The position numbers and the translations under genes are program-made. A DNA stretch of 64,000 nucleotides from Naegleria gruberi (Eukaryota), in assembly GCA_000004985.1 (NCBI GenBank), contig GG738891.1. One strand, given 5' to 3'. Positions within the stretch are counted from its first letter, which is position 1. Every line of letters starts with the position of its first letter. The notes beneath the pieces were generated by a model. The model was given only the letters and a program-made list of their open reading frames with translations, ran no database searches and was not told where the DNA came from. Positions 19,835 to 38,244 of this stretch are shown one piece after another.

Positions 19835-19938
19835 ATAGACAACCATTTATTAAATTATATCATGTAATATTTTCCAGACAAATTGACATTCTATTGAATT
19901 GTTTCGAAATAGTGATCATGGCTGGAATTTTAACCGAT

Positions 19939-20652
19939 TTATTTTGAAGGTGTGTGATTTACAAATTCCCACTTTCTCTTTCTTGGAATAGTTACTGGTT
20001 CTGTTGTTTCCAAAATTGGTTGGTATTGGATATTTTCATATGCAGTTATATTTTTTCTTAGTTCTGCCCTTGCACTGTTTTCATAGTCGTTTTTGTTGAT
20101 GATAATTACATTATATTCGAAATTACGACAGAGTGGCCTAAAAAACTTTCCTTGAATTTCTAAATAAATTCTTCCTTTGTAGTTTTTGCATTGGGGATAT
20201 TGAGAGATGATATGGATTGCACGATATGCTGTTTCTTTTTTTGGAAAAGTAATAGTTGAAGTTCCAAGCAACGTCAAATCTCTACTTTTTTTAGGTTTGT
20301 GTTTACCATAAATTAGCATTTCAAAACATAATTCAGAAGAATTTTTGCTACAAATAATTTTGAAATCATTGTGAACTGTTTGAATTTCGCTTTTGCTTGG
20401 CAAGATGTTAATGCTAGATGACATTGGCATTTGTTGAGCGGTTTGTTGATTTTGAATTTGTGAGACGTTTTGCAATTGATTTTCATATGGCATATGAATT
20501 AATGTTGGTTGCCGATTCCAGAATTGAGTGTTAATTTTGAAACTCAGTAACTTCATCCTGATAGAGGATAGTTGAGAGTGGTGAGAATATCGAGGGACTT
20601 GAGGCAGTGTTATTGGATGTAACTTGGTGAGTATTATCGGTGATATCTTCAT
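19939..20652 (-). CDS. Hypothetical protein, paralog A of a diverged gene pair (paralog B is 32389..33021)
   Basis: A 237-aa ORF with ATG at 20652 (MKISPIILTKLHPITLPQVPRYSHHSQLSS…). It shares its N-terminal ~30 aa and scattered motifs (PYENQ.QNVS…QQTAQQMPMS…IYLEI.G.F) with the plus-strand ORF at 32389. There are no recognisable domains. Confidence 0.4.
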   Translation of the reverse strand: MKISPIILTKLHPITLPQVPRYSHHSQLSSIRMKLLSFKINTQFWNRQPTLIHMPYENQLQNVSQIQNQQTAQQMPMSSSINILPSKSEIQTVHNDFKIICSKNSSELCFEMLIYGKHKPKKSRDLTLLGTSTITFPKKETAYRAIHIISQYPQCKNYKGRIYLEIQGKFFRPLCRNFEYNVIIINKNDYENSARAELRKNITAYENIQYQPILETTEPVTIPRKRKWEFVNHTPSK

Positions 20653-21341
20653 AACGAAGGAAACAAATCATCGTCATCATTAATTTCATGAGTGTCAGCT
20701 TGTTGGTGTTCATACAAGGTGCAACTGAGTTTTTATACTCACATTCTCTTATTTTAGATTTTCATTACAACTCACAATTATTTTTAATTTTAGTAATGGA
20801 TGATTGTTAGGTACTTGGCCACGCTCACGTTTATTTTTAATTTTCAAGCATAATCAAAGTCCTTGGACAAGAATCGAACACGTGGTTTCTTCCTTGACAA
20901 TCTACAGTGTTTGACCTTTCGAATAATGGTGTGTACCATTAAAATTGTCTAACATTTTAAAAGTAGGCAAAAAAAAATGCCTCCATTTGCTTCTCACTAC
21001 AACCTGCTTCATTCAATAAATCATTTATAAAATTATGAGTACATACAATATGAAATAAATCATCAACTTGTTTAAATGTGAAATACATTCTAATTCTTTA
21101 ATTATTAATACTTCAATGTTCTAAACATTTTCTACATCTTTTCCGATGTTGTTACATCATTCCATGATGAGGAAGTAAAAAAATTCAATTTCAGTCCAAT
21201 AAAGTTAAACAAGTAATGTAATTGGTATGTATCGAATTTCTCGACCAATAAACACTAAATAAACACATGAGGTGGAATACCAGCAACTAATATTAATCTT
21301 CGTGTTCTAATAATTTAATGACTAACAACAAACGAGCGTGA

Positions 21342-21660
21342 AAATATTTATTTAAAATGAAAAGATTTCACAAGAATCAGGGTCAATGATGGTCAATTGA
21401 CTCATTTTGGAAGTTTTGGAGCTTTCCATGGACCTCAAGCTATTGCTGATTTCTTCCAAAATGTTTTATTTGGACAAGTTGGCGCCAGAAATCCACAATT
21501 GACTTCACATGTTATTCAAAGAATTGACGAATCAACAATTTATAAATTGGGTAAAGTTCTGGTGGAGAAATTGAAGCTCCTTATACAGTTGTTTGGACTA
21601 TGGGTCAAGAAGGAGAATATAAGATTAAAATTGATACTTTCTAACACTTTTTTGAATTAG
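21342..21660 (+). CDS. Hypothetical small ORF or terminal exon (…GSFGAFHGPQAIADFF…RIDESTIYKLGKVLVEKLKLLIQLFGLWVKKENIRLKLILSNTFLN), present in both arms of the inverted duplication
   Basis: The frame is open from the AG at ~21340 to TAG at 21660. An identical copy lies on the minus strand at 30207..30348, running into a gap. It has no recognisable domain and its 5' boundary is uncertain. Confidence 0.2.
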
Positions 21661-21802
21661 TTTACAAATATTTTTCAATTGAAAATTAAAGTTGCTATAA
21701 ATCAACAATAAGGAAAGATTGTCGTACAATTCAATTAATAATCATAATTAGTAACCACACTAAAATGGAAAGCAAATTCTCATTATTCGAAACTCAAAAA
21801 AA

Positions 21803-22086
21803 ATGCCACAATTACATGTAAATCCACTGCATCCTCCCAATCACACCAGAACAAGAGGAAATTCAGGTCCAACTCACCATCATCACTCGCACCACTCACA
21901 CCATCACCCAACGTCAACACATCACACGAGACAAGTCAGTAATCCATCTCCACCTTCTAACAGCAGTCCAGATAACATAATTAAATTTATTTCTGATGAA
22001 GATGAAAAGCATAACTGTACAATGATCGGATATTCATTTGCATCCTTCTTGGTGTCAACTTTATTATCAGTGACATTGGCAGTTGT
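21803..22086 (+). CDS. 5' part of a His-rich type II membrane protein gene, truncated by a scaffold gap; a 100% identical copy of the start of 29042..30064
   Basis: The sequence 21803-22086 is identical to the reverse complement of 29781-30064 (MPQLHVNPLHPPNHTRTRGNSGPTHHHHSHHSHHHPTSTHH…TM segment). It is preceded by CATTATTCGAAACTCAAAAAAAATG. The N run begins at 22087. Confidence 0.4.
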
Positions 22087-22137
22087 NNNNNNNNNNNNNN
22101 NNNNNNNNNNNNNNNNNNNNNNNNNNNNNNNNNNNNN

Positions 22138-22500
22138 GGACATGGTAATTATTTCGGTAAGTTTCTATTTCATTACTGACCTATTTCAATAACCAAAAAA
22201 GCCGACAAATTCAAGAAATCTCTCGGATATACCAGTTTCACAGGATCCTATTGGGCAGGAGGTTCTTCAGATAAGGCCTATCTTGCTGTATTTGATGTAC
22301 ATGTTGGCAAACAATTGGAAGTTACTAATTGGGATCACACACTTTCGGATTTCACAGAAGAATCCTTGACGAATTATAATGGACAAGATTATGATTCATT
22401 ATTTGCAAAAGCAAAGAATGGATTCTTGCTTAATAATGAATTTATAGTGTATAACTCAGCTCAATGCACAATCAAGTTTATGGTTGAAATTAAACAATAG
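22138..22500 (+). CDS. 3' fragment of a poly(ADP-ribose) polymerase (PARP) catalytic domain (last two exons), beginning at a gap
   Basis: …GHGNYF is split by a 45-nt intron 22157..22201 (GTAAGT…AAAAAAG) before ADKFKKSLGYTSFTGSYWAGGSSDKAYLAVFDVHVGKQLEVTNWDHTL…LLNNEFIVYNSAQCTIKFMVEIKQ*, matching the PARP catalytic C-terminus (…YFADMVSKSANYC…LLYNEYIVYD…KLKF). The same exons occur on the minus strand at 30389..30575 as part of the full PARP gene. Confidence 0.45.
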
Positions 22501-22534
22501 TGAAGATTCTATTAATTAAAAAATGTTATAAAAG

Positions 22535-22607
22535 AGAAACAAGATGGATTTGAACCACCGACCTTGGGGGTGAGAGCCCCATATTCTCCCCGCTGAACTA
22601 CTGTTCC
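22535..22607 (-). tRNA. tRNA-Glu (anticodon CUC)
   Basis: The reverse complement reads GGAACAG TA GTTC AGCGGGGA GAAT A TGGGG CTCTCAC CCCCA AGGTC GGTGG TTCAAAT CCATC TTGTTTC T. This gives the cloverleaf with a 7/4/5/5 stem layout, anticodon loop CUCUCAC, T-loop TTCAAAT and a 5-nt variable loop. An oligo-T terminator (CTTTTAT…TTTTTT) follows on the minus strand. The acceptor stem is weak (two G-U pairs, mostly A-U). Confidence 0.55.
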
Positions 22608-22746
22608 TCATGGTAGCTGCCAAAATCTTTAGACACTCAATAAACTGATGATTTTTTCCCTCCAAAAACTGGTTAGATTCATTTTTTGATGTTAAGCATA
22701 CAAAATTTCCTTCAATCAACCCACTTCAGGAATTGGTTCTGACATC

Positions 22747-22813
22747 TTGACATTGTGACAAGCCAACCACGTGTCCAAATTTCCAACCATCATTGACATT
22801 GTGACAAGCCAAC
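22747..22813 (+). promoter_or_regulatory. Perfect 21-bp direct repeat (TTGACATTGTGACAAGCCAAC x2, spaced 46 bp) ending 9 nt upstream of the LRR-gene ATG
   Basis: The copies lie at 22747-22767 and 22793-22813, seen directly in the sequence. They sit between the tRNA-Glu gene and the ATG at 22822. Confidence 0.4.
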
Positions 22814-22821
22814 AAAAAAAA

Positions 22822-23895
22822 ATGAGCAAACGTACAACAAGCCATGATCCGCTCAGCAACCAATCAATGGATTTAAAAAAGAAGAAACTCTCCCATCAAG
22901 AAAATATCTTCTCAGATGACATTCTTTATGACATTTTGTCATTTCACAAAAATGATTTTCCATTTATTGTAATGAATTGTGCGTTGGTTTCAAAACAGTG
23001 GTCAAATGTCATTTTAGAAAGATTGAAAGTGGAATTGAGTTGTGGAAATGACAAGAAAGTGAATGGTCAATTTTTACAAAATGTCGAAACTTTTCACATG
23101 AACATCAATGTATTTGTCAAGAGTTTCGAATGTGAAAGGTTTAGTTTGTTTAAACAATTAACAAAGCTTGATATTGCTTATGAATTAGAAGATCCTGATT
23201 ATTTGGACCATCTAAGAGAACAAGATTATGAAGAATACCAAAAATACCTCCAATTTACTCACAAAATTGGTAAAACGGGAGCAAAATATATTGGTGATCA
23301 ATTGAGACAGTTGACTTATCTCAATATTGGTAATAATGATATTGGAGATGAAGGAGCCAAGCACATTAGTCAATTGAAACTCTTGACTTTTCTTGATGTT
23401 TATGAAAATCGAATTAGCAATGTAGGACTTGTCAATTTCAGTAACGAATTGCAACATTTGACACATCTTAATATCAATTCCAATTATATTTTCTCAGATG
23501 ATGCAAAATTATTAATTGAAATGAAACAATTAACTCATCTCAATATTGGTGATAATTCTCTTCAAGAGGAAGGTGCCAAATGGATTAGTGAAATGAAGCA
23601 ATTGAAATATCTCAATATTTCCAGAAACCTTATTAGAAGTGAAGGCATGAAATATATTTGTGAGTTGACAAATTTAACAACTCTCAACGTTTCCCAGAAT
23701 AGTATAAAAGATAAAGGGATAGAGAAATTACCAAATTTGGAAAAATTGACCGAGCTCAATATTAGTTACAACAATATTAGTAACAAAGGAGCTAAATTGA
23801 TCAACGAGTTGAAACAATTGACTTTTCTTGATATGGACTGCAATGAAGGAGGTGATATGAAAGGATTCAAAATTACTATTGCACTTAAAAATTGA
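22822..23895 (+). CDS. F-box-like / ribonuclease-inhibitor-type leucine-rich-repeat protein
   Basis: The first ATG is at 22822 after aaaaaaaa; the ORF track start at 22771 is not an ATG. The N-terminal sequence DDILYDILSFHKNDFPFIVMNCALVSKQWSNVILERL is F-box-like. It is followed by about 9 RNI-type LRRs (…LNIGNNDIGDEGAKHISQLKLLTFLDVYENRISNVG…NIGDNSLQEEGAKWISEMKQLKYLNISRNLIRSEGMKYI…). Confidence 0.6.
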   Translation: MSKRTTSHDPLSNQSMDLKKKKLSHQENIFSDDILYDILSFHKNDFPFIVMNCALVSKQWSNVILERLKVELSCGNDKKVNGQFLQNVETFHMNINVFVKSFECERFSLFKQLTKLDIAYELEDPDYLDHLREQDYEEYQKYLQFTHKIGKTGAKYIGDQLRQLTYLNIGNNDIGDEGAKHISQLKLLTFLDVYENRISNVGLVNFSNELQHLTHLNINSNYIFSDDAKLLIEMKQLTHLNIGDNSLQEEGAKWISEMKQLKYLNISRNLIRSEGMKYICELTNLTTLNVSQNSIKDKGIEKLPNLEKLTELNISYNNISNKGAKLINELKQLTFLDMDCNEGGDMKGFKITIALKN

Positions 23896-24080
23896 AATTT
23901 ATCGTAATCTTTCAGATTAAATACAAAATGCTAATGTAATTTATACGAATTTTATGATTGAATCATGTCAATAAACATGTATATTCAAATATTAATGAAT
24001 TTACAAATTTCTGTTAATGACCTAGATCAGAATTTCATCCTCTAAAAAAAGAGGTACAAATTTTTTGTAATGATAGATAA

Positions 24081-24169
24081 CCCGTTGTAGTCCAATGGTT
24101 AGGACATGTGACTCAGTCCAACAAGACTAAAGTTCTCACAAGATCCTGGTTCAACTCCAGGCAATGGGT
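24081..24169 (+). tRNA. Intron-containing tRNA gene (predicted 17-nt intron 24118..24134); the anticodon reads CAG but the isotype is unresolved
   Basis: The fold is CCCGTTG TA GTCC AATGGTTA GGAC A TGTGA CTCAGT[ccaacaagactaaagtt]C TCACA AGAT CCTGG TTCAACT CCAGG CAATGGG T. It has canonical D- and T-arms, the acceptor pairs with one G-U, an intron at the canonical 37/38 position with an anticodon-intron helix (AGTC/GACT), and an oligo-T (T9) about 17 nt downstream. The short 4-nt variable loop is inconsistent with a Leu/Ser class II tRNA, and position 37 would be U. Confidence 0.45.
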
Positions 24170-24368
24170 ATCCAATTATTGCAATCTGTTTCAATTTTTT
24201 TTTAACCTTCAGCAAACCTTAAAAGAACTATGCAATTTTCACCCCAACTCCGACCTATTCCTTTCGAATACTGTATCAAGGTCACAATTTCACTCCACTC
24301 TTTTCCACTTCGCTCCAAATTAAAAAAATCCAAGATTCTAATTTAGCGCCAAAATCAAATCTAAAAAA

Positions 24369-27010
24369 ATGGCCCACGAGATTTTTGCCAACACGATCGT
24401 GTTGAGTGAGGGCAATTCCTTCTTGTCATCGTCCTCGGAGGGGTTGTATAATGTATTGATGCAAAGTGTACAGGCATATAATGGAGGTGGTTTTCCTGGA
24501 TTACCATTTTTCAATGATACAATGTGTGGGGATTATGCTGTCTTGTCGGCTAGTCTGCCCGATAATATGGATTTGTGTGCTTGGAGAGCTTGGTTATTTG
24601 TAAGTTGTTGTTATTGTTGTTTTTAATTGTCATTATCTTTTTATTCAACAATTTTCTTGATGATGATGGATATGTTATTATTATAATATGGAATTATTTT
24701 GATGGGTTGAATATGAATAGTTCGTTTTGCTCATCTTTATTCTGACCATTGTATCCGGAATTATACTCACCATCTTATCGTGGGTTGTATTTGCAGTGAT
24801 CAATTTTTGCAAGTGTTTATTTGGAGGAGATTCAAAGAGAAAGAACTATCAAAGAATTGGTGAAGAACCACTCTCTAGGCACTTCCAAAATAGAGGAGAT
24901 TCCTTGTTTGATGGAGTGAGCTCTGATGGTCTTGTTACTAGAACTTGTGGACTTTCATATTGTTGTATTGTTTTGTTCTTGTTGGTTGTTTGTCTTGCAG
25001 GTATGTTTTCAATAACTAGAATAATTAGATAACTTTATTTTACTATAATATTATTATTTGTAATGGATAATAATTTATTCACACAACAATTAACCTTGCT
25101 CATCATGATATGTGAATAATATTTTGGAATTTAATTTTCTGTTGAAATTCTTCATCAAATAACGATATCATATCAACATTTAAATAACAACAACAACAGG
25201 TGTTGGTTTCTCTGTAGCTTTCTATGTTGGTCTGGATAGAGCAGCTGATCCATTGATTACTTCATTGGAAAAGGCTAGAAATGCTATCAATGAAACAGCT
25301 ACCATCATGTCTAACACTACTTATCAATCCAACTTGACTGGATTTGTTGAATACATTCCAAGGATTCAAACTCTTGTACAAGGAGCCATTCAAAATGGTC
25401 AGGCCTATTTGGAAAATGCAGTAATTGATAATAATGATAGACTTCATTTGGAATATTTAATTTATGATCAATTGAATGGAGCAACAAAGAGTCTCTATGA
25501 AAACTCAACTGAAATCAATGCTCTTGTTCAAAAGTATCAAAATATTGTTTCAAAGAGTTCTATTGATGTTTTCAATTTGGATGACGTATTTAATTATCAA
25601 GCTCTGATGCCAAACGGATTGGTTGCCAGAATGTTAATTGCTCACGAAAACCTCGTAGATGCCTTGTCAAACACCAGTTATCTTGTTGAACATTTGAATT
25701 ATACCAATGAAGTCTTTTCTGGTAACACCTACTCCAAGTGGAATCAAATGTATAGTGAAGTCTTTGTTCCTTTGGCAATCAATGCTCCAACCATTCCAGA
25801 TCAAATGGGTCAATTCCAAACTGTATTGGACTATTTACTCACCTACTCTGATGGAAATACTGTATTTATTGATTTCCAAATCACGTACATGTCAGTTTTT
25901 ATTGGTTTCTTTGCAATTGGTATTTGTGTTGCATTGTTTGCTGGTATTGGTCTCACTAGAAGAAGTAATGCCTTGTTGAATATTACATGCTGTTGCAGCT
26001 GCTCACTTTTGGTTTGGTTCGTTCTCTTTGCTGCTGTTAACATTGCCGTATCATTGGCTATTGCTCCATATTGTGTTCACAAGGGTGACTTGTTCGATCC
26101 AAATAATTTGAAGCATTCTGAACCAGTTAAGGTTCAACCAAGCTCCCTCGGCCTTTCTGACATTAATTCTAATACTCCAAACATTTTTGTTAACAATTAT
26201 ACATTTGTCATTAATGTTACCAGATTCTTTATGAATTGTGGTGGTAAGAATTTCGATCAAGAAGCTGATGCCCAAGAAAATGTTCTCGATGCTATTCAAT
26301 TGGCTCAACAAGGTCACTATGCCACAGTTGAAGATTACAATCAATTCTTTGATGCCTTCATTTCTGGTATGGAATCATTGAACTTTACTGAGCAAGCTAT
26401 GAATGTTGCTAATAATGGTCAAACACTCTTCAAAAACATGCTTCTCATCCAACAAGATCTTGCAGCTGTTGGTAATACTCTCCAATCATACGTAACAGCA
26501 CTTGAAGCTCTCAAGTCACGTGTAAATAACAATACCTTGTATGAAGATTATGAAGCTAACAAGCAAGTAATTACCCAATTCCAAAATGAAATGACTCCAC
26601 TCTTGAACAAATTGATCCAAGAAGCTCAAACCACTAATGATATTCAATACAATGATGCTCAATCCTATTTCACTGGTACCTCCTATCCTGAATTTTTACA
26701 AGGATACCAATTGGGATCTACCTTTATGATTAATTACATTTCCAATTTGCCAGTTGATGCTAATGTTTTGGTTCCTAGTGCTGAAACTGTTGGATTGTTA
26801 TTGAACGATTTGAAGGATAGAACCACCTGTAGCTTTATGAGTAAGGCTATTGAAGAAGTCAACACAGATCTTTGTGGAGTTATGGGCATTGGTACTCTTG
26901 GTAATGCCATTTCTCAAATCCTTGTTTCTCTCTTCTTGTTCCTCTTGATTCCAATTGGAGTTATTTTGGCAAGCAGATTACACAGAGACAAGTATGTCGG
27001 CATTAACTAA
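24369..27010 (+). CDS. Prominin-like pentaspan membrane glycoprotein; 3 exons, about 773 aa
   Basis: Exon 1 is 24369..24599 (…TTATTT|GTAAGT), intron 1 is 24600..24720 and exon 2 is 24721..25000 (…GCAG|GTATGT, phase 1). Intron 2 is 25001..25199 and contains a (CAA)n tract; exon 3 is 25200..27010. The topology is TM1-short loop-TM2, a ~200-aa glycosylated loop, TM3 (MSVFIGFFAIGICVALFAGIGL), a Cys-rich short loop (CCCSCS), TM4, a ~290-aa glycosylated loop, TM5 (ILVSLFLFLLIPIGVILA) and a short tail. This is the prominin (CD133) arrangement. Confidence 0.45.
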
Positions 27011-27387
27011 TTTATTATTTTCACAAATTTGAAATAAATCTAAAAAAATCATCTTATTATATAGAAATCTTTTTTAATGAACTAATGGAATTTTGAAAAC
27101 TTTAGATTATTCATCGTCACTTACAAACTCCAAAAATAGGAACTTTGATTATCTGTGATGATAACACTTTTGATCTGTACAGTTCCTTGTTCACGCAGTT
27201 GTGTTCAGTTTCTTATCCACCATACAACAAATTTCCACTCACATAAACTGTCAAAAAATTCTTAAAAAAATTTCAACATCCAACAGACAGTTTCAACACA
27301 TTCTTGGATACATCATTATTCCATCATCTATTCAATCCCAAGAACATTAGTTTTCTTTCGTCTCTTCAAATACGAAACAACACACTC

Positions 27388-27456
27388 TTCGCGCGCAAAC
27401 TTCTTTCAAAAACTACATACAAATTGTTTTGATCATCAAAAAAGAAGCGCGAAAAC
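27388..27456 (+). promoter_or_regulatory. Two E2F-like GC motifs (TTCGCGCGCAAA at 27388-27399 and AGCGCGAAAAC at 27446-27456) in the G-alpha promoter, 150-220 bp upstream of the ATG
   Basis: TTTSSCGC-type sites stand out in an otherwise more than 70% AT intergenic region. A duplicated TCATCAAAAAAG element flanks them at 27433-27444 and ~27488-27497. Confidence 0.3.
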
Positions 27457-27542
27457 AAAACCTTCCTCTCTCGAGCTCTCGCTACTTTTTTCATCATCAA
27501 AAAGTGATAAGAAACACAAAGCCTCTCCGCTCTACTAATATA

Positions 27543-27564
27543 ACAACAACAACAACAACAACAA
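27543..27564 (+). repeat. (CAA)7 microsatellite in the G-alpha 5' region
   Basis: ACAACAACAACAACAACAACAA. Similar (CAA)n and (AAT)n tracts occur in the intron 25180-25198 and in the coding poly-N/Q of 8690-8780. Confidence 0.6.
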
Positions 27565-27607
27565 TAACATCAATCATATAATTATAATTTTATAAATTTT
27601 AATAATA

Positions 27608-29014
27608 ATGGGAAATTGTTTTGGAAAACCAAGTCCTCCCAATGATAATTCTCAAAGAGGCAACGACAATAAAACAACAAAAACAGATAATTCAAAAGGA
27701 CATCATACGAATGGAGGAGTGAATGGTTCACCTTCTAATGCTACTGCTGATCCTAAAGCTACAGATAATGCTGCCGTTGATTTGAAAATATTATTATTGG
27801 GAAGTGGTGATAGTGGTAAAAGTAAGTAGTACTTGTTGTTCTTGTTTATTGAAGATTTAATTTCGTATGAACTTTCTAATAATATTATTACTTTAAATTG
27901 TATTTTTATACTTAATAATTATAATAATAATATAGGTACCCTTTTCAAACAAATTAAAATTACAGAAACTGGTGGATTTACACATCAAGAAGTTTTACGT
28001 TATCAGAGTACTATTTACGGAAATTTAATACATACTATTGATAGTTTGGTGGATCTGCTGAAAGAAAAGGGAAATATTGCTAGATTGCTTCCACAAAACA
28101 ATGAAAGAGTTTCCAGGNTGAAGGAAGTGACAGGGATGCCACACGACACTATACAGAGGAAATGGCAAATGACATTCAAGAATTGNCCAATGATCCAGAT
28201 ATAATTAATGCTTTTAACAATATGAGATATGAAGCACACGTTTTTGAAGGTTTGTTTTCTTGTATTCACCATTTAATCAATTCTTTCAATTGTAATAACA
28301 ACAAATTAGGTGCTACATACTTTTTCAAGGATTTAGAGAGATTACGTCCACCAGATTATAAACCAAATGATACTGACATTTTATATTGTAGACAAAAGAC
28401 AACAGGTATTTCAGATGTCACATTCGAATTTAATACAAAGAAACTTAAAGTTGTTGATGTTGGAGGTCAAAGACCAGAAAGAAGAAAATGGATTAATGCT
28501 TATGATGAAGTTGATGCTATTATATTTGTTGCCAGTCTTAGTGATTTTGATCAAAAATGTTATGAAGATGATTTGGTAAGTTTTTTTGCTTTACTTTCAA
28601 ATTAATTTTACTATATTTATGTATTATAAATATTGATTTATGAATATAAAATAGACTAATAGAATGCAAGAATCAATAGATTTATTTTCAAAAACAATCA
28701 ATGATGAACGGTTTAGAGATACCCCAATAATACTGCTACTGAACAAGACTGATGTTTTCACACGAAAACTTCAACAAAAATCCATTCGAACCTTGTTTGC
28801 TGACGAATATACTGGACCAGATAAATTTGAGGAATCAGTCAAGTTTATTGAGAACAAATACTTGAGTACTAACCGATTCGATCCTAATAGAATTTTCACA
28901 TTTTGGAGTTGTGCCACACAAACCGATGATATCAAGGAAGTGTTTGGACAAGTCAAAAAGAGACTTTTGGAAGCCAAATTCCCTGAACTCAGAGAATCGC
29001 ACCCTTCGAATTAA
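27608..29014 (+). CDS. Heterotrimeric G-protein alpha subunit; 4 exons with an apparent frameshift in exon 2 next to an ambiguous base
   Basis: Exon 1 is 27608..27821 (MGNCFGK… with myristoyl-Gly2 and Cys4; P-loop LLLGSGDSGKS). Intron 1 is 27822..27935 and exon 2 is 27936..28249. Within exon 2 the reading frame shifts by -1 around the n at 28118, between …NIARLLPQNNERVSR and …EGSDRDATRHYTEEMANDIQELxNDPDIINAFNNMRYEAHVFEG. Intron 2 is 28250..28309 and exon 3 is 28310..28575 (…KLKVVDVGGQRPERRKWINAYDEVDAIIFVASLSDFDQKCYEDDL). Intron 3 is 28576..28654 and exon 4 is 28655..29014 (TNRMQESIDLF…LLLNKTDVF…FTFWSCATQTDDIKEVF…). The DVGGQ, NKxD and TCAT G-boxes are all present. Confidence 0.65.
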
Positions 29015-29041
29015 ATTAATTTATTTATTACAATAAGCTCA

Positions 29042-30064
29042 TTATTTGTCTCTAAAAGTCATGTATCCAACCACATACAACATTTGAGAATATCCAAATC
29101 CATCAGCAATTTCAGAACTAGTCAATGGTGTCAATACTGTCAAAATCCATTGTTCTTGGGGATGTAAAATATTTCTTCTCAACACTGCAATTACCTCATT
29201 GGAACCATCCAATTTTACAATTGGCATCTCATAGGAAATGAAATCAATCCTCTGCTGAACCATTGCTCTATTCGCTCCCTTTGCATCTCTCAAATAATAA
29301 GTCTTGACTCCAGAGTTAACTTGTAATTTTATAGAACCACCAAAAATTCCCTGATCTGCACTATTCAATCCAACAATGGAACTCACACTAGGAACACAAC
29401 TAGCTGAATTATCATAATGTCCAATCTGAATCGTATCAGATAGAGTAAAATAAGAACCCATTGCAAATGAAATTCCCTTTCCATCATTCCAAATAAAATC
29501 CATCATTGTGGGGACACTCCAAGTTCTCAATTGTAAACTTCCAATGCTTTGTTTTGTGTATTGAGAGAGTTTTCCAGATGATAGTAATGAAATAATTGAA
29601 TCACCACTCAAATCATTGTATTTTTCAATGACAAATTGACCTTGTGAAAACATGTCTCTTGTCATGACAAAACTGTCATTAGTAGAAAGAGTTTCAATAC
29701 TTGAAAGTGTAGTTAAATAATTAGAATTATAAACAAAACAATTTTTAGGTGCCTTGCTTGAAATTGCTCCTAAAACAATGACAACTGCCAATGTCACTGA
29801 TAATAAAGTTGACACCAAGAAGGATGCAAATGAATATCCGATCATTGTACAGTTATGCTTTTCATCTTCATCAGAAATAAATTTAATTATGTTATCTGGA
29901 CTGCTGTTAGAAGGTGGAGATGGATTACTGACTTGTCTCGTGTGATGTGTTGACGTTGGGTGATGGTGTGAGTGGTGCGAGTGATGATGGTGAGTTGGAC
30001 CTGAATTTCCTCTTGTTCTGGTGTGATTGGGAGGATGCAGTGGATTTACATGTAATTGTGGCAT
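29042..30064 (-). CDS. His-rich type II membrane protein of unknown function (full-length copy)
   Basis: A 340-aa ORF with ATG at 30064, preceded on the minus strand by CATTATTCGAAACTCAAAAAAAATG. The N-terminal cytoplasmic part is HHHHSHHSHHH-rich, followed by one TM (FASFLVSTLLSVTLAVVIVLGAI) and a ~240-aa extracellular domain with N-glycosylation sites. Confidence 0.5.
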   Translation of the reverse strand: MPQLHVNPLHPPNHTRTRGNSGPTHHHHSHHSHHHPTSTHHTRQVSNPSPPSNSSPDNIIKFISDEDEKHNCTMIGYSFASFLVSTLLSVTLAVVIVLGAISSKAPKNCFVYNSNYLTTLSSIETLSTNDSFVMTRDMFSQGQFVIEKYNDLSGDSIISLLSSGKLSQYTKQSIGSLQLRTWSVPTMMDFIWNDGKGISFAMGSYFTLSDTIQIGHYDNSASCVPSVSSIVGLNSADQGIFGGSIKLQVNSGVKTYYLRDAKGANRAMVQQRIDFISYEMPIVKLDGSNEVIAVLRRNILHPQEQWILTVLTPLTSSEIADGFGYSQMLYVVGYMTFRDK

Positions 30065-32530
30065 TTTTTTTGAGTTTCGAATAATGAGAATTTGCTTTCC
30101 ATTTTAGTGTGGTTACTAATTATGATTATTAATTGAATTGTACGACAATCTTTCCTTATTGTTGATTTATAGCAACTTTAATTTTCAATTGAAAAATATT
30201 TGTAAACTAATTCAAAAAAGTGTTAGAAAGTATCAATTTTAATCTTATATTCTCCTTCTTGACCCATAGTCCAAACAACTGTATAAGGAGCTTCAATTTC
30301 TCCACCAGAACTTTACCCAATTTATAAATTGTTGATTCGTCAATTCTTNNNNNNNNNNNNNNNNNNNNNNNNNNNNNNNNNNNNNNNNNNNNNNNNNNAT
30401 CCATTAGTACTTCCAATTGTTTGCCAACATGTACATCAAATACAGCAAGATAGGCCTTATCTGAAGAACCTCCTGCCCAATAGGATCCTGTGAAACTGGT
30501 ATATCCGAGAGATTTCTTGAATTTGTCGGCTTTTTTGGTTATTGAAATAGGTCAGTAATGAAATAGAAACTTACCGAAATAATTACCATGTCCAAACATT
30601 CTACCATTAGCAGCAGGTCTCAATTGAAGACCATTGATCATGATGGACAAAAAGTTTGCATTTTTAGAGCCATGCCAGAACAATTCTCTCTTTTGATTTC
30701 GTTTCCTTTGGACGAAATTGTCGAATAGTGTTTGAGTTTGATTATTGGTAACTCTGAAAGCTCTGTAAAACAAGTGACTATCTGAGCCCATCATCTTCTT
30801 GAGGAGTTTAATTTCATCTTGTGAAGCATCCTCCACAACAAGTCCATTCTTTTTAAGGAAATCAGGTTGATCAGATTGATCATGTTTTGTAATCTTGACT
30901 TGAGTAGCCATGACATCAAGAATTTCCTGCTGATCATCTAATAGTGAAGCAGCACTATCCTTATTACTCTTATCATTAATCAAATAATCCTGAACTTTCT
31001 TCATCTTTCTTGGAATGACAGCGTACAATTTCAGTAATTTTTCATTGAATGAATTCAGAAAATCCTCATCATTCTTGAAATTCTCATTCACCTTATACAA
31101 TTCATCCAAAATAGATTGAGCAGAGTCCAATTGTTCCTTTGTAACACTTCCAACTCCAACATTGTAATTGCTTACAATGGAAATATTCGAAAAATTATTC
31201 AACTCTGAAATTAAACTCTTCACATCTGGACTGGAATTCTCTAAATAAATATCATCCCCTGCATTGGTCATATCAGATCCCAAATTTGTCATATCTACAT
31301 AGCCTTTCTTCATCTTGGATCGAACTAAACTATCCCATTCACTCAAACTGGCTTTGATTGCAATTCCTGTGGCACCAACTCGACCATAGACAATATGAAT
31401 TTCACCATCCTTTTCAGTCATTTCATAATACTTGTTATTATTCTTGGAGGAGACCATAATTAATTTACAATATCTTCCGGCAGTGTTTGTGAAATTTTTC
31501 ACACTCGAGGAAAAGCTTCGGATTGGATGAATCGTGGAGGAAAAATTATTAACTCTCTTCATCATGCTCATGCTTCTGTTGAGCATTAGTGGTGAAATAA
31601 TCTCCCGATGGGAAGCAATAGATAAAGTACAGTTTAGTTTGCGCATTTTTTTGTGGTTGACTATTGTGAAATTGATCAAGATTTTGATTGGGATTGAAAT
31701 TGATTGAAAGATAACGAAAGAAATGATTTTTAATTATTAGTATTGTAAACTCTGTGAACACTGTTATGTAGAAGTTAAATCTCCCAGTTGATGATAGTAT
31801 TCCACCTCATGTTTTTATTGGCGAGAAATTAGATACATGCTAATTACATTTCTTTTTATTGTACTGAAATTTATTTTTTACTTTCTCATTATAATGAAAC
31901 AAAAGTATGAATCTGATGATGTAACAACATCGGAAAAGATGTAGAAAATGGATAGAACATTGAAGTATTAATAATTAAAGAATTAAAATGTATTTCACAT
32001 TTAAACAAGTTGATGATTTATTTCATATTGTATGTACTCATAATTTTATAAATGATTTATTGAATGAAGCAGGTTGTAGTGAGAAGCAAATGGAGGCATT
32101 TTTTTTTGCCTACTACACTGTAGATTGTCAAGGAAGAAACCACGTGTTCGATTCTTGTCCAAGGACTTTGATTATGCTTGAAAATTAAAAATAAACGTGA
32201 GCGTGGCCAAGTACCTAACAATCATCCATTACTAAAATTAAAAATAATTGTGAGTTGTAATGAAAATCTAAAATAAGAGAATGTGAGTATAAAAACTCAG
32301 TTGCACCTTGTATGAACACCCACAAAAATTAAAAAAGAAATACTGAAAATGTTGAATCAAGATATGAAATACCAACAAGCTGACACTCATGAAATTAATG
32401 ATGACGATGATTGTTTCCTTCGTTATGAAGATATCACCGATAATACTCACAAAGTTACATCCAATAACACTGCCTCAAGTCCCTCGATATTCTCACCACT
32501 CTCAACTATCCTCTCTCAAGAAGAAAGTTA
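30060..32530. repeat. Right arm of the inverted segmental duplication (partner 20530..22500), interrupted by a scaffold gap
   Basis: See the left arm. Gene order differs between the arms. Read on the minus strand, the right arm runs PARP, then the gap, then the small ORF, then the His-rich gene. The left arm runs the small ORF, the 5' of the His-rich gene, the gap, then the PARP 3' exons. Confidence 0.6.
30389..31679 (-). CDS. Poly(ADP-ribose) polymerase-like protein (WGR domain + PARP regulatory/catalytic domains), 3'-truncated by a scaffold gap
   Basis: Exon 1 is 30575..31679 and the 45-nt intron is 30530..30574. Exon 2 runs 30389..30529 into the N run at 30349-30388. The WGR motif is KYYEMTEKDGEIHIVYGRVGATG. 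The catalytic block is ELFWHGSKNANFLSIMINGLQLRPAANGRMFGHGNYF|ADKFKK…AYLAVFDVHVGKQLEV, with the H-G-S…Y…E-type PARP signature partly visible. The missing C-terminus corresponds to the fragment at 22202..22500. Confidence 0.55.
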
Positions 32531-33021
32531 CTGAGTTTCAAAACATTAACTCAACCTCTCAATCACAACCACATGAAATTATTCACCCATATGAAAATCA
32601 AGTTCAAAACGTCTCACATATTATACTTCAACAAACCGCTCAACAAATGCCAATGTCTTTCATTAACAAATCAAATTTCGAGAGTTGCAGTGATTTTAGA
32701 TTCATCAATAGATCTTCCGAAAAAATACTTGAAATTGGAATATACCAGTTTTCCTTTGTAAACCAAAATTTGATTCGTACTAGACGTTTACGTGTTACCA
32801 TTCCAGAATATAGAGAAACAGGAAATGCATATCGTGTAAAATATATTATCGACAAATACCAAGGACAAATTTATTTGGAAATTAAAGGAACTTTTGTTAA
32901 GCTAATTAGTAAAGGTAAACTTAATACAATTATCATCAATGAAAACAATATAAGTTTACAAAAAATCAATTACAACAATCAAAGCTCATTGGAATGTACT
33001 GATTATGAAGTCTATGAATGA
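32389..33021 (+). CDS. Hypothetical protein, paralog B of the diverged pair (paralog A is 19939..20652)
   Basis: A 210-aa ORF (MKLMMTMIVSFVMKISPIILTKLHPITLPQVPRYSHHSQLSS…). Relative to paralog A, a 1-nt indel upstream changes which ATG is usable. The C-terminal two-thirds have diverged strongly. Confidence 0.4.
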   Translation: MKLMMTMIVSFVMKISPIILTKLHPITLPQVPRYSHHSQLSSLKKKVTEFQNINSTSQSQPHEIIHPYENQVQNVSHIILQQTAQQMPMSFINKSNFESCSDFRFINRSSEKILEIGIYQFSFVNQNLIRTRRLRVTIPEYRETGNAYRVKYIIDKYQGQIYLEIKGTFVKLISKGKLNTIIINENNISLQKINYNNQSSLECTDYEVYE

Positions 33022-33621
33022 ATTTGTTTTTGATTGTCTAATTCTGAGCGAAGTGAAGAATGGACTTGTTTTCATTGTAAACTTAATAAAATATAAGTTG
33101 AGTATTTTTCAACAAGACCTTAACTACCTTCTTCAGGTACAATCAGCAAAAGATATCACCTGGCAAAGACTCAAACAACGCCAAGGTTGGTTCACAAGGT
33201 GCTTCTGCTCGCTTCTTCGATGGAATTGTTTGAGTCCAACCCATCTGAAGAGGTTTCTGGTAAAAGAGCAAGAGTTGCTGATGAACCAGATGATTGGTTT
33301 AAAACCACGTCATCAACTCTTACCAAAGAATGTTTGGTGTATCATTGAAAGAAGATTTGCAGTTGGAAGAAGCTGTTTCGAATAGAAGAGAGCGCTGACA
33401 ACTTGGAATTCAAGAATAGAATGGCTGCTCTTGAATAGACACTCCATTCCAGATTCATCTAGTATAAAAGATATTAAAAGTAAAGGTTATTCTTTACTTT
33501 TAACAAATTCTTTTATCATCTCTCAAATCTGCAAGCGTTTGAGAGAGAGTGATAACCTTGATTTACCGCTTATTCTTCAAGGATTTGAATTTATTCAGAA
33601 TATTTCTGAGTTAAATCTAGT

Positions 33622-33924
33622 TTGGAGGCCAAACAACAAGAGAAGGCGATTAAATCTGCTGAAAAAGTAAAAACAGCAGAAACTATTGAAAAAGTCAGCA
33701 AATGGGCCAGCAGAACCCCTAATTTTCGTAAGTTCCCCACTAGATACGATAATAGACAAGCTGGCTACAACTACAACAACAACAAGCACAACAACAACAA
33801 CTTCAACCAAGGACAAGGTAATGGTTATCAATCCAACAATCAAGGCTTCAGAAGATTCAATAATGCTCACCAAGCAAGTGGAACCTCTTCAAATTCCTCC
33901 AACTCAAACAACAACAATAAATGA
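33622..33924 (+). CDS. Hypothetical Asn/Gln/Gly-rich small protein, possibly the 3' exon of an unresolved multi-exon gene
   Basis: A 100-aa ORF (…KQQEKAIKSAEKVKTAETIEKVSKWASRTPNFRKFPTRYDNRQAGYNYNNN…NQGFRRFNN…). Overlapping alternative frames in 33100-33960 are also open (MELFESNPSEEVSGKRARVADEPDDWF…; a Thr-rich frame from 33686 that runs into the gap), so the gene model is ambiguous. Confidence 0.2.
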   Translation: MEAKQQEKAIKSAEKVKTAETIEKVSKWASRTPNFRKFPTRYDNRQAGYNYNNNKHNNNNFNQGQGNGYQSNNQGFRRFNNAHQASGTSSNSSNSNNNNK

Positions 33925-34087
33925 TGCCAACATTCCTCTTGGTGGTCGCCTCTCTCGTTTTCACAGCGGATGGCAANNNNNNNNNNNNNNNNNNNNNNNN
34001 NNNNNNNNNNNNNNNNNNNNNNNNNNAATATTACTTTTATATTTTTGTGATACTAGTAACTATATATCTACTATTACACTTAATAGT

Positions 34088-37309: not shown

Positions 37310-38244
37310 NNNNNNNNNNNNNNNNNNNNNNNNNNNNNNNNNNNNNNNNNNNNNNNNNNNNNNNNNNNNNNNNNNNNNNNNNNNNNNNNNNNNNNNNNNN
37401 NNNNNNNNNNNNNNNNNNNNNNNNNNNNNNNNNNNNNNNNNNNNNNNNNNNNNNNNNNNNNNNNNNNNNNNNNNNNNNNNNNNNNNNNNNNNNNNNNNNN
37501 NNNNNNNNNNNNNNNNNNNNNNNNNNNNNNNNNNNNNNNNNNNNNNNNNNNNNNNNNNNNNNNNNNNNNNNNNNNNNNNNNNNNNNNNNNNNNNNNNNNN
37601 NNNNNNNNNNNNNNNNNNNNNNNNNNNNNNNNNNNNNNNNNNNNNNNNNNNNNNNNNNNNNNNNNNNNNNNNNNNNNNNNNNNNNNNNNNNNNNNNNNNN
37701 NNNNNNNNNNNNNNNNNNNNNNNNNNNNNNNNNNNNNNNNNNNNNNNNNNNNNNNNNNNNNNNNNNNNNNNNNNNNNNNNNNNNNNNNNNNNNNNNNNNN
37801 NNNNNNNNNNNNNNNNNNNNNNNNNNNNNNNNNNNNNNNNNNNNNNNNNNNNNNNNNNNNNNNNNNNNNNNNNNNNNNNNNNNNNNNNNNNNNNNNNNNN
37901 NNNNNNNNNNNNNNNNNNNNNNNNNNNNNNNNNNNNNNNNNNNNNNNNNNNNNNNNNNNNNNNNNNNNNNNNNNNNNNNNNNNNNNNNNNNNNNNNNNNN
38001 NNNNNNNNNNNNNNNNNNNNNNNNNNNNNNNNNNNNNNNNNNNNNNNNNNNNNNNNNNNNNNNNNNNNNNNNNNNNNNNNNNNNNNNNNNNNNNNNNNNN
38101 NNNNNNNNNNNNNNNNNNNNNNNNNNNNNNNNNNNNNNNNNNNNNNNNNNNNNNNNNNNNNNNNNNNNNNNNNNNNNNNNNNNNNNNNNNNNNNNNNNNN
38201 NNNNNNNNNNNNNNNNNNNNNNNNNNNNNNNNNNNNNNNNNNNN
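37310..38244. other. Scaffold gap (935 N). Other gaps are 22087-22137 (51 N), 30349-30388 (40 N) and 33977-34026 (50 N). Single ambiguous bases are at 28118 and 28186.
   Basis: Runs of n in the sequence. ORF-track entries made of X residues (37224-38401) are artefacts of this gap. Confidence 0.95.

What the first reader, a model, noticed from the sequence alone, without database searches (positions are those of the whole stretch)
20530..32530. Inverted segmental duplication with 100%-identical blocks abutting scaffold gaps and rearranged PARP gene fragments
Two ~2 kb arms (20530-22500 and 30060-32530) are inverse copies flanking a 7.5-kb unique core, which holds tRNA-Glu, the LRR gene, the intron-containing tRNA, the prominin-like gene and G-alpha. 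The copies are base-for-base identical next to the N gaps (for example 21803-22086 versus 29781-30064) but only ~85-90% identical at the outer ends. Gene order is not simply mirrored, as described for the two arm repeat features. The right-arm PARP gene lacks exactly the terminal exon that is present in the left arm. This could be a recent inverted duplication with a breakpoint, or a mis-join of repeat copies at the gaps.
Basis: seen in the sequence. Interest (0 to 1): 0.5.

Follow-up and report, generated by a model that had tools for sequence, protein, structure and literature searches.

The report
Flipped contig mimics an inverted duplication
Most of this "inverted duplication" in a Naegleria gruberi draft scaffold is an assembly artefact: an 8.2-kb contig was placed backwards and its overlaps with both neighbours were never merged, so only a modest 1.35-kb inverted repeat at the outer ends is real.

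Summary
The repeated blocks exist as described, but the perfect ones are not a biological duplication. The window is Naegleria gruberi draft sequence made of contigs X (to 22086), Y (22138-30348) and Z (30399-33976).

- **Geometry.** Block B (21519-22086 = rc 29781-30348, 568 nt, 100%) joins the 3' end of X to the 3' end of Y. Block C (22138-22329 = rc 30403-30593) joins the 5' end of Y to the 5' end of Z. Every block boundary is a contig end, and no boundary shows two known sequences diverging.
- **Effect of flipping Y.** Both gaps close. The result is one intact 456-aa WGR-PARP gene, one intact 340-aa gene and one intact upstream ORF.
- **Independent support.** A metagenome contig about 98% identical (L001) runs straight from Z into Y in the flipped order.
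- **Annotation damage.** The deposited PARP model XP_002673370.1 is a chimera spliced across the N gap.
- **What is real.** An inverted repeat with arms of about 1.35 kb (19930-21275 and 31795-33030) lies inside contigs. It carries a diverged ORF pair (47% aa) and an inner part of about 620 nt that is mostly 98-100% identical. In the corrected layout the arms lie about 9.7 kb apart. This repeat probably confused the scaffolder.

Interest is low.

The parts
19930..21275 (.). Left arm (A) of the real inverted repeat. It holds a 237-aa ORF at 19939-20652 (-) and a near-identical inner part at 20541-21160.
   Evidence: Alignments, identity profile, BLASTP of the ORF pair. It lies inside contig X, with unique sequence on both sides.
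21397..21660 (+). ORF of an unannotated upstream gene ('u'). It runs unbroken across the outer edge of block B at 21518/21519.
   Evidence: The copy at 30207-30348 is cut off by the N gap exactly at the end of contig Y.
21519..22086 (+). Block B, the last 568 nt of contig X. It contains the end of the u ORF and the first 284 nt of the 340-aa gene.
   Evidence: 100% identical to the reverse complement of 29781-30348. It ends at the N gap.
22087..22137 (.). Scaffold gap of 51 N. It disappears when contig Y is flipped.
22138..30348 (.). Contig Y, 8211 nt, inferred to be reverse-complemented relative to its true orientation in the scaffold.
   Evidence: Both of its ends dovetail with the neighbouring contigs only when it is flipped. 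L001 supports the Z-Y join.
22138..22329 (+). Block C, the first 192 nt of contig Y. It holds the last 19 nt of PARP exon 1, the 45-nt intron (22157-22201) and the first 128 nt of exon 2.
   Evidence: Identical to the reverse complement of 30403-30593, apart from three single-base length differences in short runs within the last ~20 nt of contig Z.
22202..22500 (+). PARP exon 2, including the stop codon. The last 171 nt (22330-22500) are present only here.
22534..22607 (-). tRNA-Glu(CTC).
22771..23895 (+). Leucine-rich-repeat protein gene.
   Evidence: Pfam LRR_6 and LRR_8.
24080..24170 (+). tRNA with a 17-nt insertion (intron) in the anticodon loop. Its identity is ambiguous.
   Evidence: Rfam tRNA 55.7 bits with a 21-nt insert. 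ARAGORN calls Met(CAT) plus an intron, or Leu(CAG) without one.
24369..27010 (+). The family is not established.
   Evidence: Only a sub-threshold Tweety hit.
27608..29014 (+). G-protein alpha subunit gene with several exons. Single N bases lie at 28118 and 28186.
   Evidence: Pfam G-alpha; N positions.
29042..30064 (-). 340-aa gene (MPQLHVNPL...), conserved in N. fowleri and N. lovaniensis. It has no gene model of its own in N. gruberi.
29781..30348 (-). Block B', the last 568 nt of contig Y. It is the same DNA as block B.
30349..30398 (.). Scaffold gap of 50 N. It disappears when contig Y is flipped.
30399..30593 (-). Block C', the first 195 nt of contig Z. It is the same DNA as block C, with a low-quality contig tip.
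30575..31646 (-). PARP exon 1, carrying the WGR domain, a regulatory-like region and the start of the catalytic domain.
31795..33030 (.). Right arm (A') of the real inverted repeat, with a 210-aa ORF at 32389-33021 (+).
   Evidence: It lies inside contig Z.

Best explanation
The window comes from the Naegleria gruberi draft genome. Within the scaffold, contig Y (22138-30348) was inserted in the wrong orientation, and its overlaps with the neighbouring contigs were not merged.

The true local order is X, then the reverse complement of Y, then Z. In that order the last 568 nt of X are the same DNA as the last 568 nt of Y (block B). The first ~192 nt of Y are the same DNA as the first ~195 nt of Z (block C).

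Because Y is written backwards, each overlap appears twice, in inverted orientation and next to a placeholder gap. This creates the impression of a perfect inverted duplication with shuffled gene order and a broken PARP gene.

Shown directly:
- the dovetail geometry;
- restoration of three genes after the flip;
- an independent contig bridging Z to Y;
- a chimeric deposited gene model.

Inferred: the cause of the error. A real inverted repeat lies just outside Y, with arms of ~1.35 kb whose inner ~620 nt are mostly 98-100% identical. A read pair with one end inside such a repeat fits either orientation of the interior.
For: 1. **Every boundary is a contig end.** All four boundaries of blocks B and C fall at the end of X, the end of Y, the start of Y or the start of Z. 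Nowhere do two sequenced copies diverge into different flanks.
2. **Identity fits one locus written twice.** Block B is 568/568 identical. Block C differs only by three one-base length differences in short runs within the last ~20 nt of contig Z. There L001 agrees with Y, not Z, as expected for a low-quality contig tip.
3. **Flipping Y cleans up the locus.** The merged sequence is 63,136 nt, and in it both gaps and both blocks disappear. A self-comparison then leaves only the outer A/A' repeat.
4. **Three genes become whole and single-copy.**
   - The u ORF 21397-21660 is continuous in X but cut by the gap in Y.
   - The 340-aa gene starts in X and is complete in Y.
   - PARP exon 1 in Z joins exon 2 in Y to give 456 aa.
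   - That PARP matches Pfam PARP positions 9-198 of 199, plus sub-threshold WGR and PARP_reg hits.
   - It also aligns end to end with a 455-aa Bacteroidota WGR-PARP, with no gap at the join.
5. **An independent contig bridges the join.** ENA metagenome contig L001 (2094 nt, ~98% identical) matches 31830->30403 and then 22138->22961. On the corrected sequence it forms one colinear alignment.
6. **The deposited model is a chimera.** XP_002673370.1 ends in 43 residues that are a frame-shifted reading of 30018-29890. It was therefore spliced across the N gap into the neighbouring gene.
Against: - No reads, read depth or long reads were available, so the copy number of blocks B and C was not measured.
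- The X-to-Y join has no independent bridging contig. No near-identical copy of the 340-aa protein exists in the protein collection, and two metagenome pattern scans found nothing.
- L001 comes from a related strain (~98% identity), not from the sequenced strain.
- A scaffolder normally orients an 8-kb contig correctly from read pairs, so something must have misled it. The proposed cause is inference only.
- Synteny with N. fowleri and N. lovaniensis is too rearranged to decide.
Confidence: 0.88

Rival explanations
1. A real, very recent inverted duplication with an internal rearrangement. Blocks B and C would each exist twice in the genome, in the order given. The left copy would carry a truncated 340-aa gene fused to a PARP 3' fragment, and the right copy a PARP lacking its 3' end.
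For: The scaffold as deposited shows this order. A real inverted repeat does exist immediately outside these blocks, so the locus is prone to duplication.
Against: - It requires all four block boundaries to coincide with contig ends by chance, with the diverging flanks always hidden in ~50-N gaps.
- It leaves three genes truncated precisely at contig ends.
- It requires 568/568 identity next to arms that differ by 0.5-12%.
- The related-strain contig L001 shows the uninterrupted PARP-tRNA-Glu-LRR order.
Confidence: 0.04
2. The overlaps are single-copy per haplotype, but the orientation given to Y reflects a real inversion polymorphism. Recombination between the A/A' inverted repeats would have flipped the whole ~9.7-kb interval in one haplotype, or in part of the culture. 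Read pairs from outside the repeat would then support both orientations, and the assembler would have produced a chimera of the two.
For: - The interval is flanked by inverted repeats whose inner ~620 nt are mostly 98-100% identical while the outer parts have diverged. This pattern fits ongoing exchange between the arms.
- N. gruberi NEG-M is reported to be heterozygous (PMC9928731, citing Fritz-Laylin et al. 2010).
- A second, 99%-identical PARP N-terminal fragment sits on a separate 2644-nt scaffold (XP_002668163.1).
- In an inverted haplotype, Y would have exactly the orientation deposited.
Against: - Contigs X and Z carry only the junctions of the non-inverted arrangement (A-u-B and C'-PARP-A').
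- No A-PARP or u-A' junction was seen in any sequence available here.
- Mis-placed read pairs within the repeat explain the error without any polymorphism.
Confidence: 0.1

Closest known systems
Mis-oriented contig with unmerged dovetail overlaps in a draft shotgun scaffold (assembly artefact)
   Same: - Perfect identity confined to contig ends.
- Minimal placeholder gaps.
- Duplicated blocks vanish and genes become whole when one contig is flipped.
- A gene model is spliced across the gap.
   Different: Nothing tested departs from this pattern. Only the cause of the mis-orientation is inferred rather than shown.
Inverted segmental duplication / inverted low-copy repeats flanking a unique interval
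   Same: The outer arms (19930-21275 and 31795-33030) are true inverted paralogous copies inside contigs. They carry a diverged ORF pair and a homogenised inner part, and they flank ~9.7 kb of unique genes.
   Different: - The arms are ~1.35 kb, not ~2 kb.
- They do not include the PARP gene, the 340-aa gene or the 100%-identical blocks.
- Inversion of the interval has not been demonstrated.
Bacterial-type WGR-PARP (PARP1-3-like catalytic domain with a WGR domain), as found in Bacteroidota
   Same: The reconstructed 456-aa protein is colinear over its full length with 455-aa Bacteroidota proteins at 43% identity. It has the PARP catalytic domain, with WGR and regulatory-domain matches just below Pfam's cut-offs.
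   Different: It is encoded in a eukaryote and interrupted by a 45-nt GT..AG intron. No biochemical activity was tested.

Membership tests
Assembly artefact: unmerged contig overlap with a flipped contig | The repeated blocks end exactly at contig ends, in suffix-to-prefix (dovetail) geometry once one contig is reversed. | tested here: met
   Block B is the last 568 nt of X and the last 568 nt of Y. Block C is the first 192 nt of Y and the first 195 nt of Z.
Assembly artefact: unmerged contig overlap with a flipped contig | The copies are identical except for sequencing-type errors at contig tips. | tested here: met
   568/568 in block B. In block C the only differences are three one-base run-length changes in the last ~20 nt of Z, where L001 agrees with Y.
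Assembly artefact: unmerged contig overlap with a flipped contig | Merging removes the gaps and restores interrupted genes. | tested here: met
   The corrected sequence gives an intact 456-aa PARP, an intact 340-aa gene and an intact u ORF.
Assembly artefact: unmerged contig overlap with a flipped contig | An independent assembly shows the merged order. | tested here: inconclusive
   Met for the Z-Y join through L001, a related strain at ~98% identity. No independent contig was found for the X-Y join.
Assembly artefact: unmerged contig overlap with a flipped contig | Single-copy read depth over the blocks, and read pairs consistent with the flipped order. | not testable with these tools
   No reads or traces were available.
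True inverted segmental duplication | Each copy is sequenced in its own context, with distinct flanks on both sides. | tested here: not met
   Not met for blocks B and C: at every boundary one copy runs into N. Met for the outer arms A/A', which lie inside contigs X and Z.
True inverted segmental duplication | The copies differ by substitutions or indels accumulated since duplication. | tested here: not met
   Not met for blocks B and C, which are identical. Met for A/A': 88-99.5% identity, indels of 51 and 53 nt, and ORFs 47% identical.
PARP (poly/mono-ADP-ribose polymerase, Pfam PF00644) | A complete catalytic domain scoring above the curated cut-off. | tested here: met
   78.4 bits against a cut-off of 26.7, profile positions 9-198 of 199. 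This holds only for the protein joined across contigs Z and Y.
PARP (poly/mono-ADP-ribose polymerase, Pfam PF00644) | His-Tyr-Glu catalytic residues. | tested here: met
   By alignment with P0004: H in FWHGS, Y in GNYFAD, E in NNEFIVY. All three align with identical residues. Enzymatic activity was not tested.
   No Prominin hit. Only a sub-threshold Tweety match, E = 0.024, 13.8 bits against a cut-off of 31.8.

The most novel reading that the evidence does not exclude
The 1.35-kb inverted repeats really do flip the ~9.7-kb interval between them. That interval holds the u ORF, the 340-aa gene, G-alpha, the membrane protein ORFs, two tRNAs, the LRR gene and PARP. On this reading strain NEG-M is heterozygous or mosaic for the inversion, and that polymorphism, not simple read mis-placement, made the scaffolder put contig Y backwards. 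The near-identity of the inner arms would then reflect ongoing exchange between them.
Probability: 0.1. Interest if true: 0.35.

Novelty: not a real feature. Interest (0 to 1): 0.1.

Why it matters
The value is mainly practical.
- The deposited N. gruberi scaffold has an 8.2-kb contig backwards at this locus.
- That error produced a chimeric PARP model, XP_002673370.1 (NAEGRDRAFT_51615).
- It left a conserved 340-aa gene without a model of its own.
- It can mislead anyone counting duplications or PARP genes in this reference genome.

Flipping the contig closes two gaps and gives a complete WGR-PARP whose best matches outside Naegleria are bacterial. The remaining real inverted repeat is an ordinary small paralogous pair. 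It would gain some interest only if it were shown to drive an inversion polymorphism.

Tried and rejected
- **Exact-protein look-ups.** I searched for independent assemblies of the same strain using the 340-aa ORF, P0003, P0002 and a 301-aa PARP ORF. None is on record. The N. gruberi genome itself does not seem to be in that index.
- **Metagenome pattern scans.** Two degenerate-pattern scans of JGI metagenome contigs, aimed at the X-Y junction region, found nothing.
- **Synteny.** Comparison with N. fowleri (L002) and N. lovaniensis (L005) around the 340-aa gene ortholog was inconclusive.
  - One neighbour keeps the divergent arrangement expected if the gene is on the + strand, as in contig X.
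  - Another neighbour is itself inverted.
  - G-alpha, PARP and the other genes are not within 10 kb in those species.
- **Homologs of the arm ORF.** A search with the 237-aa left-arm ORF found none, not even a N. gruberi model.
- **Rejected: flip-flop between A and A' as the direct source of the deposited order.** Such an event would invert everything between the arms, including the inner ends of X and Z, and these are not inverted.
- **Rejected: the 51-nt and 53-nt indels in the arms as lost introns.** Their boundaries are not GT..AG.
- **Rejected: the Z-tip differences as real divergence.** They are run-length changes at the extreme contig end, and L001 agrees with Y there.
Full report
**What is in the sequence**

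The window has N runs at 22087-22137, 30349-30398, 33977-34026 and 37310-38244, plus single N bases at 28118 and 28186. The finding therefore covers three contigs of a scaffold:
- X, ending at 22086;
- Y, 22138-30348 (8211 nt);
- Z, 30399-33976.

A self-comparison gives five inverted matches:

| Left | Right | Identity |
|---|---|---|
| 20406-20714 | 32668-32363 | 88% |
| 20700-20910 | 32325-32115 | 99.5% |
| 20962-21160 | 32114-31916 | 98.5% |
| 21519-22086 (block B) | 30348-29781 | 568 nt, 100% |
| 22138-22329 (block C) | 30593-30403 | 99.5% |

The arms, however, are not contiguous 2-kb copies:
- 21161-21518 has no match in the right arm beyond a weak tail to ~21275;
- 30594-31915 has none in the left arm beyond a weak tail to ~31795;
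- 22330-22500 has no counterpart at all.

**Source**

The PARP fragment is 100% identical to a Naegleria gruberi predicted protein, XP_002673370.1 (NAEGRDRAFT_51615), on a 339,217-nt scaffold. GC content is 33%.

**The key geometry**

Block B is the last 568 nt of X and, inverted, the last 568 nt of Y. Block C is the first 192 nt of Y and, inverted, the first 195 nt of Z. These are suffix-to-prefix overlaps in the order X, reverse-complemented Y, Z.

At every one of the four block boundaries one copy simply runs into N. There is no place where two known sequences stop being alike.

Block B is 568/568 identical. Block C differs only in the last ~20 nt of Z, by three one-base changes in short runs (tt to t, tt to t, ggg to gg). 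This looks like a poor contig tip.

**Genes**

Three genes are cut exactly at contig ends in the deposited layout and become whole in the flipped one.
- **The u ORF.** An ORF at 21397-21660 runs unbroken across the edge of block B in X. Its copy in Y stops at the gap.
- **The 340-aa gene.** A gene beginning MPQLHVNPL starts at 21803 in X, is cut at 22086, and is complete in Y at 30064-29042.
- **PARP.**
  - Exon 1 is 31646-30575 (-) in Z.
  - A 45-nt GT..AG intron (30574-30530 = 22157-22201) follows.
  - Exon 2 is 22202-22500 in Y. Only its first 128 nt are also in Z.
  - The joined product is 456 aa.
  - It matches the Pfam PARP catalytic domain over positions 9-198 of 199, with WGR and regulatory-domain hits just below Pfam's cut-offs.
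  - It aligns end to end with a 455-aa Bacteroidota WGR-PARP (43% identity), with no gap at the intron site or the contig join.

What the right-hand PARP lacks is therefore the last 171 nt of exon 2, not a whole exon.

**Independent evidence**

The protein search returned a 408-aa protein, 96% identical, from an ENA metagenome assembly (ERZ929261). Its 2094-nt contig is L001.
- L001 matches 31830-30403 on the minus strand and then 22138-22961 on the plus strand, sharing block C.
- On my corrected sequence it forms one colinear alignment of 2088 nt at 97.8%.
- Base by base, L001 follows Z where Y has N, and follows Y where Z decays into N.

A close relative therefore has PARP exon 1, intron, exon 2, tRNA-Glu and the LRR gene in one piece.

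**Corrected layout**

Flipping Y and merging the overlaps gives 63,136 nt with both gaps closed. A self-comparison of that sequence leaves only the outer repeat.

**Annotation damage**

The last 43 residues of XP_002673370.1 are a frame-shifted reading of 30018-29890, inside the 5' part of the 340-aa gene. The model uses the true PARP donor site and then a false acceptor beyond the N gap.

The 340-aa gene has orthologs in N. fowleri (46%) and N. lovaniensis (42%), but the search returned no N. gruberi protein.

**What remains real**

The outer arms lie inside contigs and have distinct flanks. Homology runs from about 19930 to 21275 on the left and from about 33030 to 31795 on the right. Identity varies along the arms:
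- about 50-60% over the outer coding part;
- a sharp rise to 92-100% from 20541 to 21160, with indels of 51 nt (left) and 53 nt (right);
- a short tail near 74%.

Each arm carries an open reading frame pointing outward: 19939-20652 (-) of 237 aa, and 32389-33021 (+) of 210 aa. They are 47% identical over 180 aa. They have no Pfam match and no homolog in the protein collection.

This is an old inverted duplication whose inner part was probably homogenised by gene conversion. That last step is inference. In the corrected layout the arms are about 9.66 kb apart.

**Likely cause of the error (inferred)**

A read pair with one end in the near-identical part of an arm fits either arm. Placed on the wrong arm, it still faces the interior at a similar distance, but it implies the opposite orientation for Y.

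A rarer alternative is a real inversion of the whole interval in one haplotype. NEG-M is reported to be heterozygous (PMC9928731). A 99%-identical PARP fragment also sits on a separate 2644-nt scaffold. However, no junction of an inverted arrangement was seen here.

**Other checks**
- tRNA-Glu(CTC), the LRR gene and G-alpha are confirmed.
- The second tRNA has a 17-nt insertion in the anticodon loop.
- 'Prominin-like' is not supported.
- Synteny with N. fowleri and N. lovaniensis is too rearranged to decide orientation.

**Verdict**

The perfect blocks and the 'rearranged PARP fragments' are an assembly and annotation artefact (confidence about 0.88). The residual inverted repeat is real but ordinary. 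The main limits are that no reads were available to measure copy number, and that only one of the two joins has an independent bridging contig.

Noticed in passing
window 30575-31646 (-) plus 22202-22500 (+): Outside Naegleria, the best 120 listed matches to the reconstructed WGR-PARP that carry a source name are all bacterial, mainly Bacteroidota (40-52% identity). Most listed hits are unnamed metagenome proteins. No N. fowleri or N. lovaniensis ortholog appears among them, yet the gene carries a 45-nt spliceosomal-type intron. This is a candidate bacterium-to-Naegleria gene transfer.
   Followed up: partly
N. gruberi 2644-nt scaffold (not in the window); protein XP_002668163.1 / NAEGRDRAFT_54926: A second, 99%-identical copy of the first 259 aa of the PARP sits on a tiny separate scaffold. 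It is probably an unmerged allelic contig. It could not be fetched with the available tools.
   Followed up: partly
window 29042-30064 (-): This 340-aa gene is conserved in N. fowleri (FDP41_006410) and N. lovaniensis (C9374_009977). The search found no N. gruberi protein for it, apparently because the chimeric PARP model consumed its 5' region. Pfam finds no domain.
   Followed up: partly
window 24080-24170 (+): This tRNA has a 17-nt insertion in the anticodon loop. ARAGORN reads it as Met(CAT) with the intron at an unusual 36/37 position, or as Leu(CAG) if no intron is allowed. The short variable region argues against Leu.
   Followed up: partly
window 45326-63991 (-): A single open reading frame of more than 6221 aa runs off the window end. 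It is built from teneurin-like EGF repeats with a REJ domain near the C-terminal end, and it accounts for the many 71-84% internal repeats seen in the self-comparison.
   Followed up: partly
window 28118 and 28186: Two isolated N bases lie inside the G-alpha coding region. They are low-quality consensus positions in contig Y.
   Followed up: no
window 20911-20961 and about 32326-32378: The two arms of the real inverted repeat each carry a private insertion (51 nt on the left, 53 nt on the right) within otherwise 98-100% identical sequence. Neither has intron-like GT..AG ends, and their origin is unexplained.
   Followed up: partly
window 33977-34026 and 37310-38244: Two further scaffold gaps, of 50 N and 935 N. 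No overlap between their flanking contig ends was detected, so 50 N looks like a floor value used when contigs are expected to abut.
   Followed up: partly
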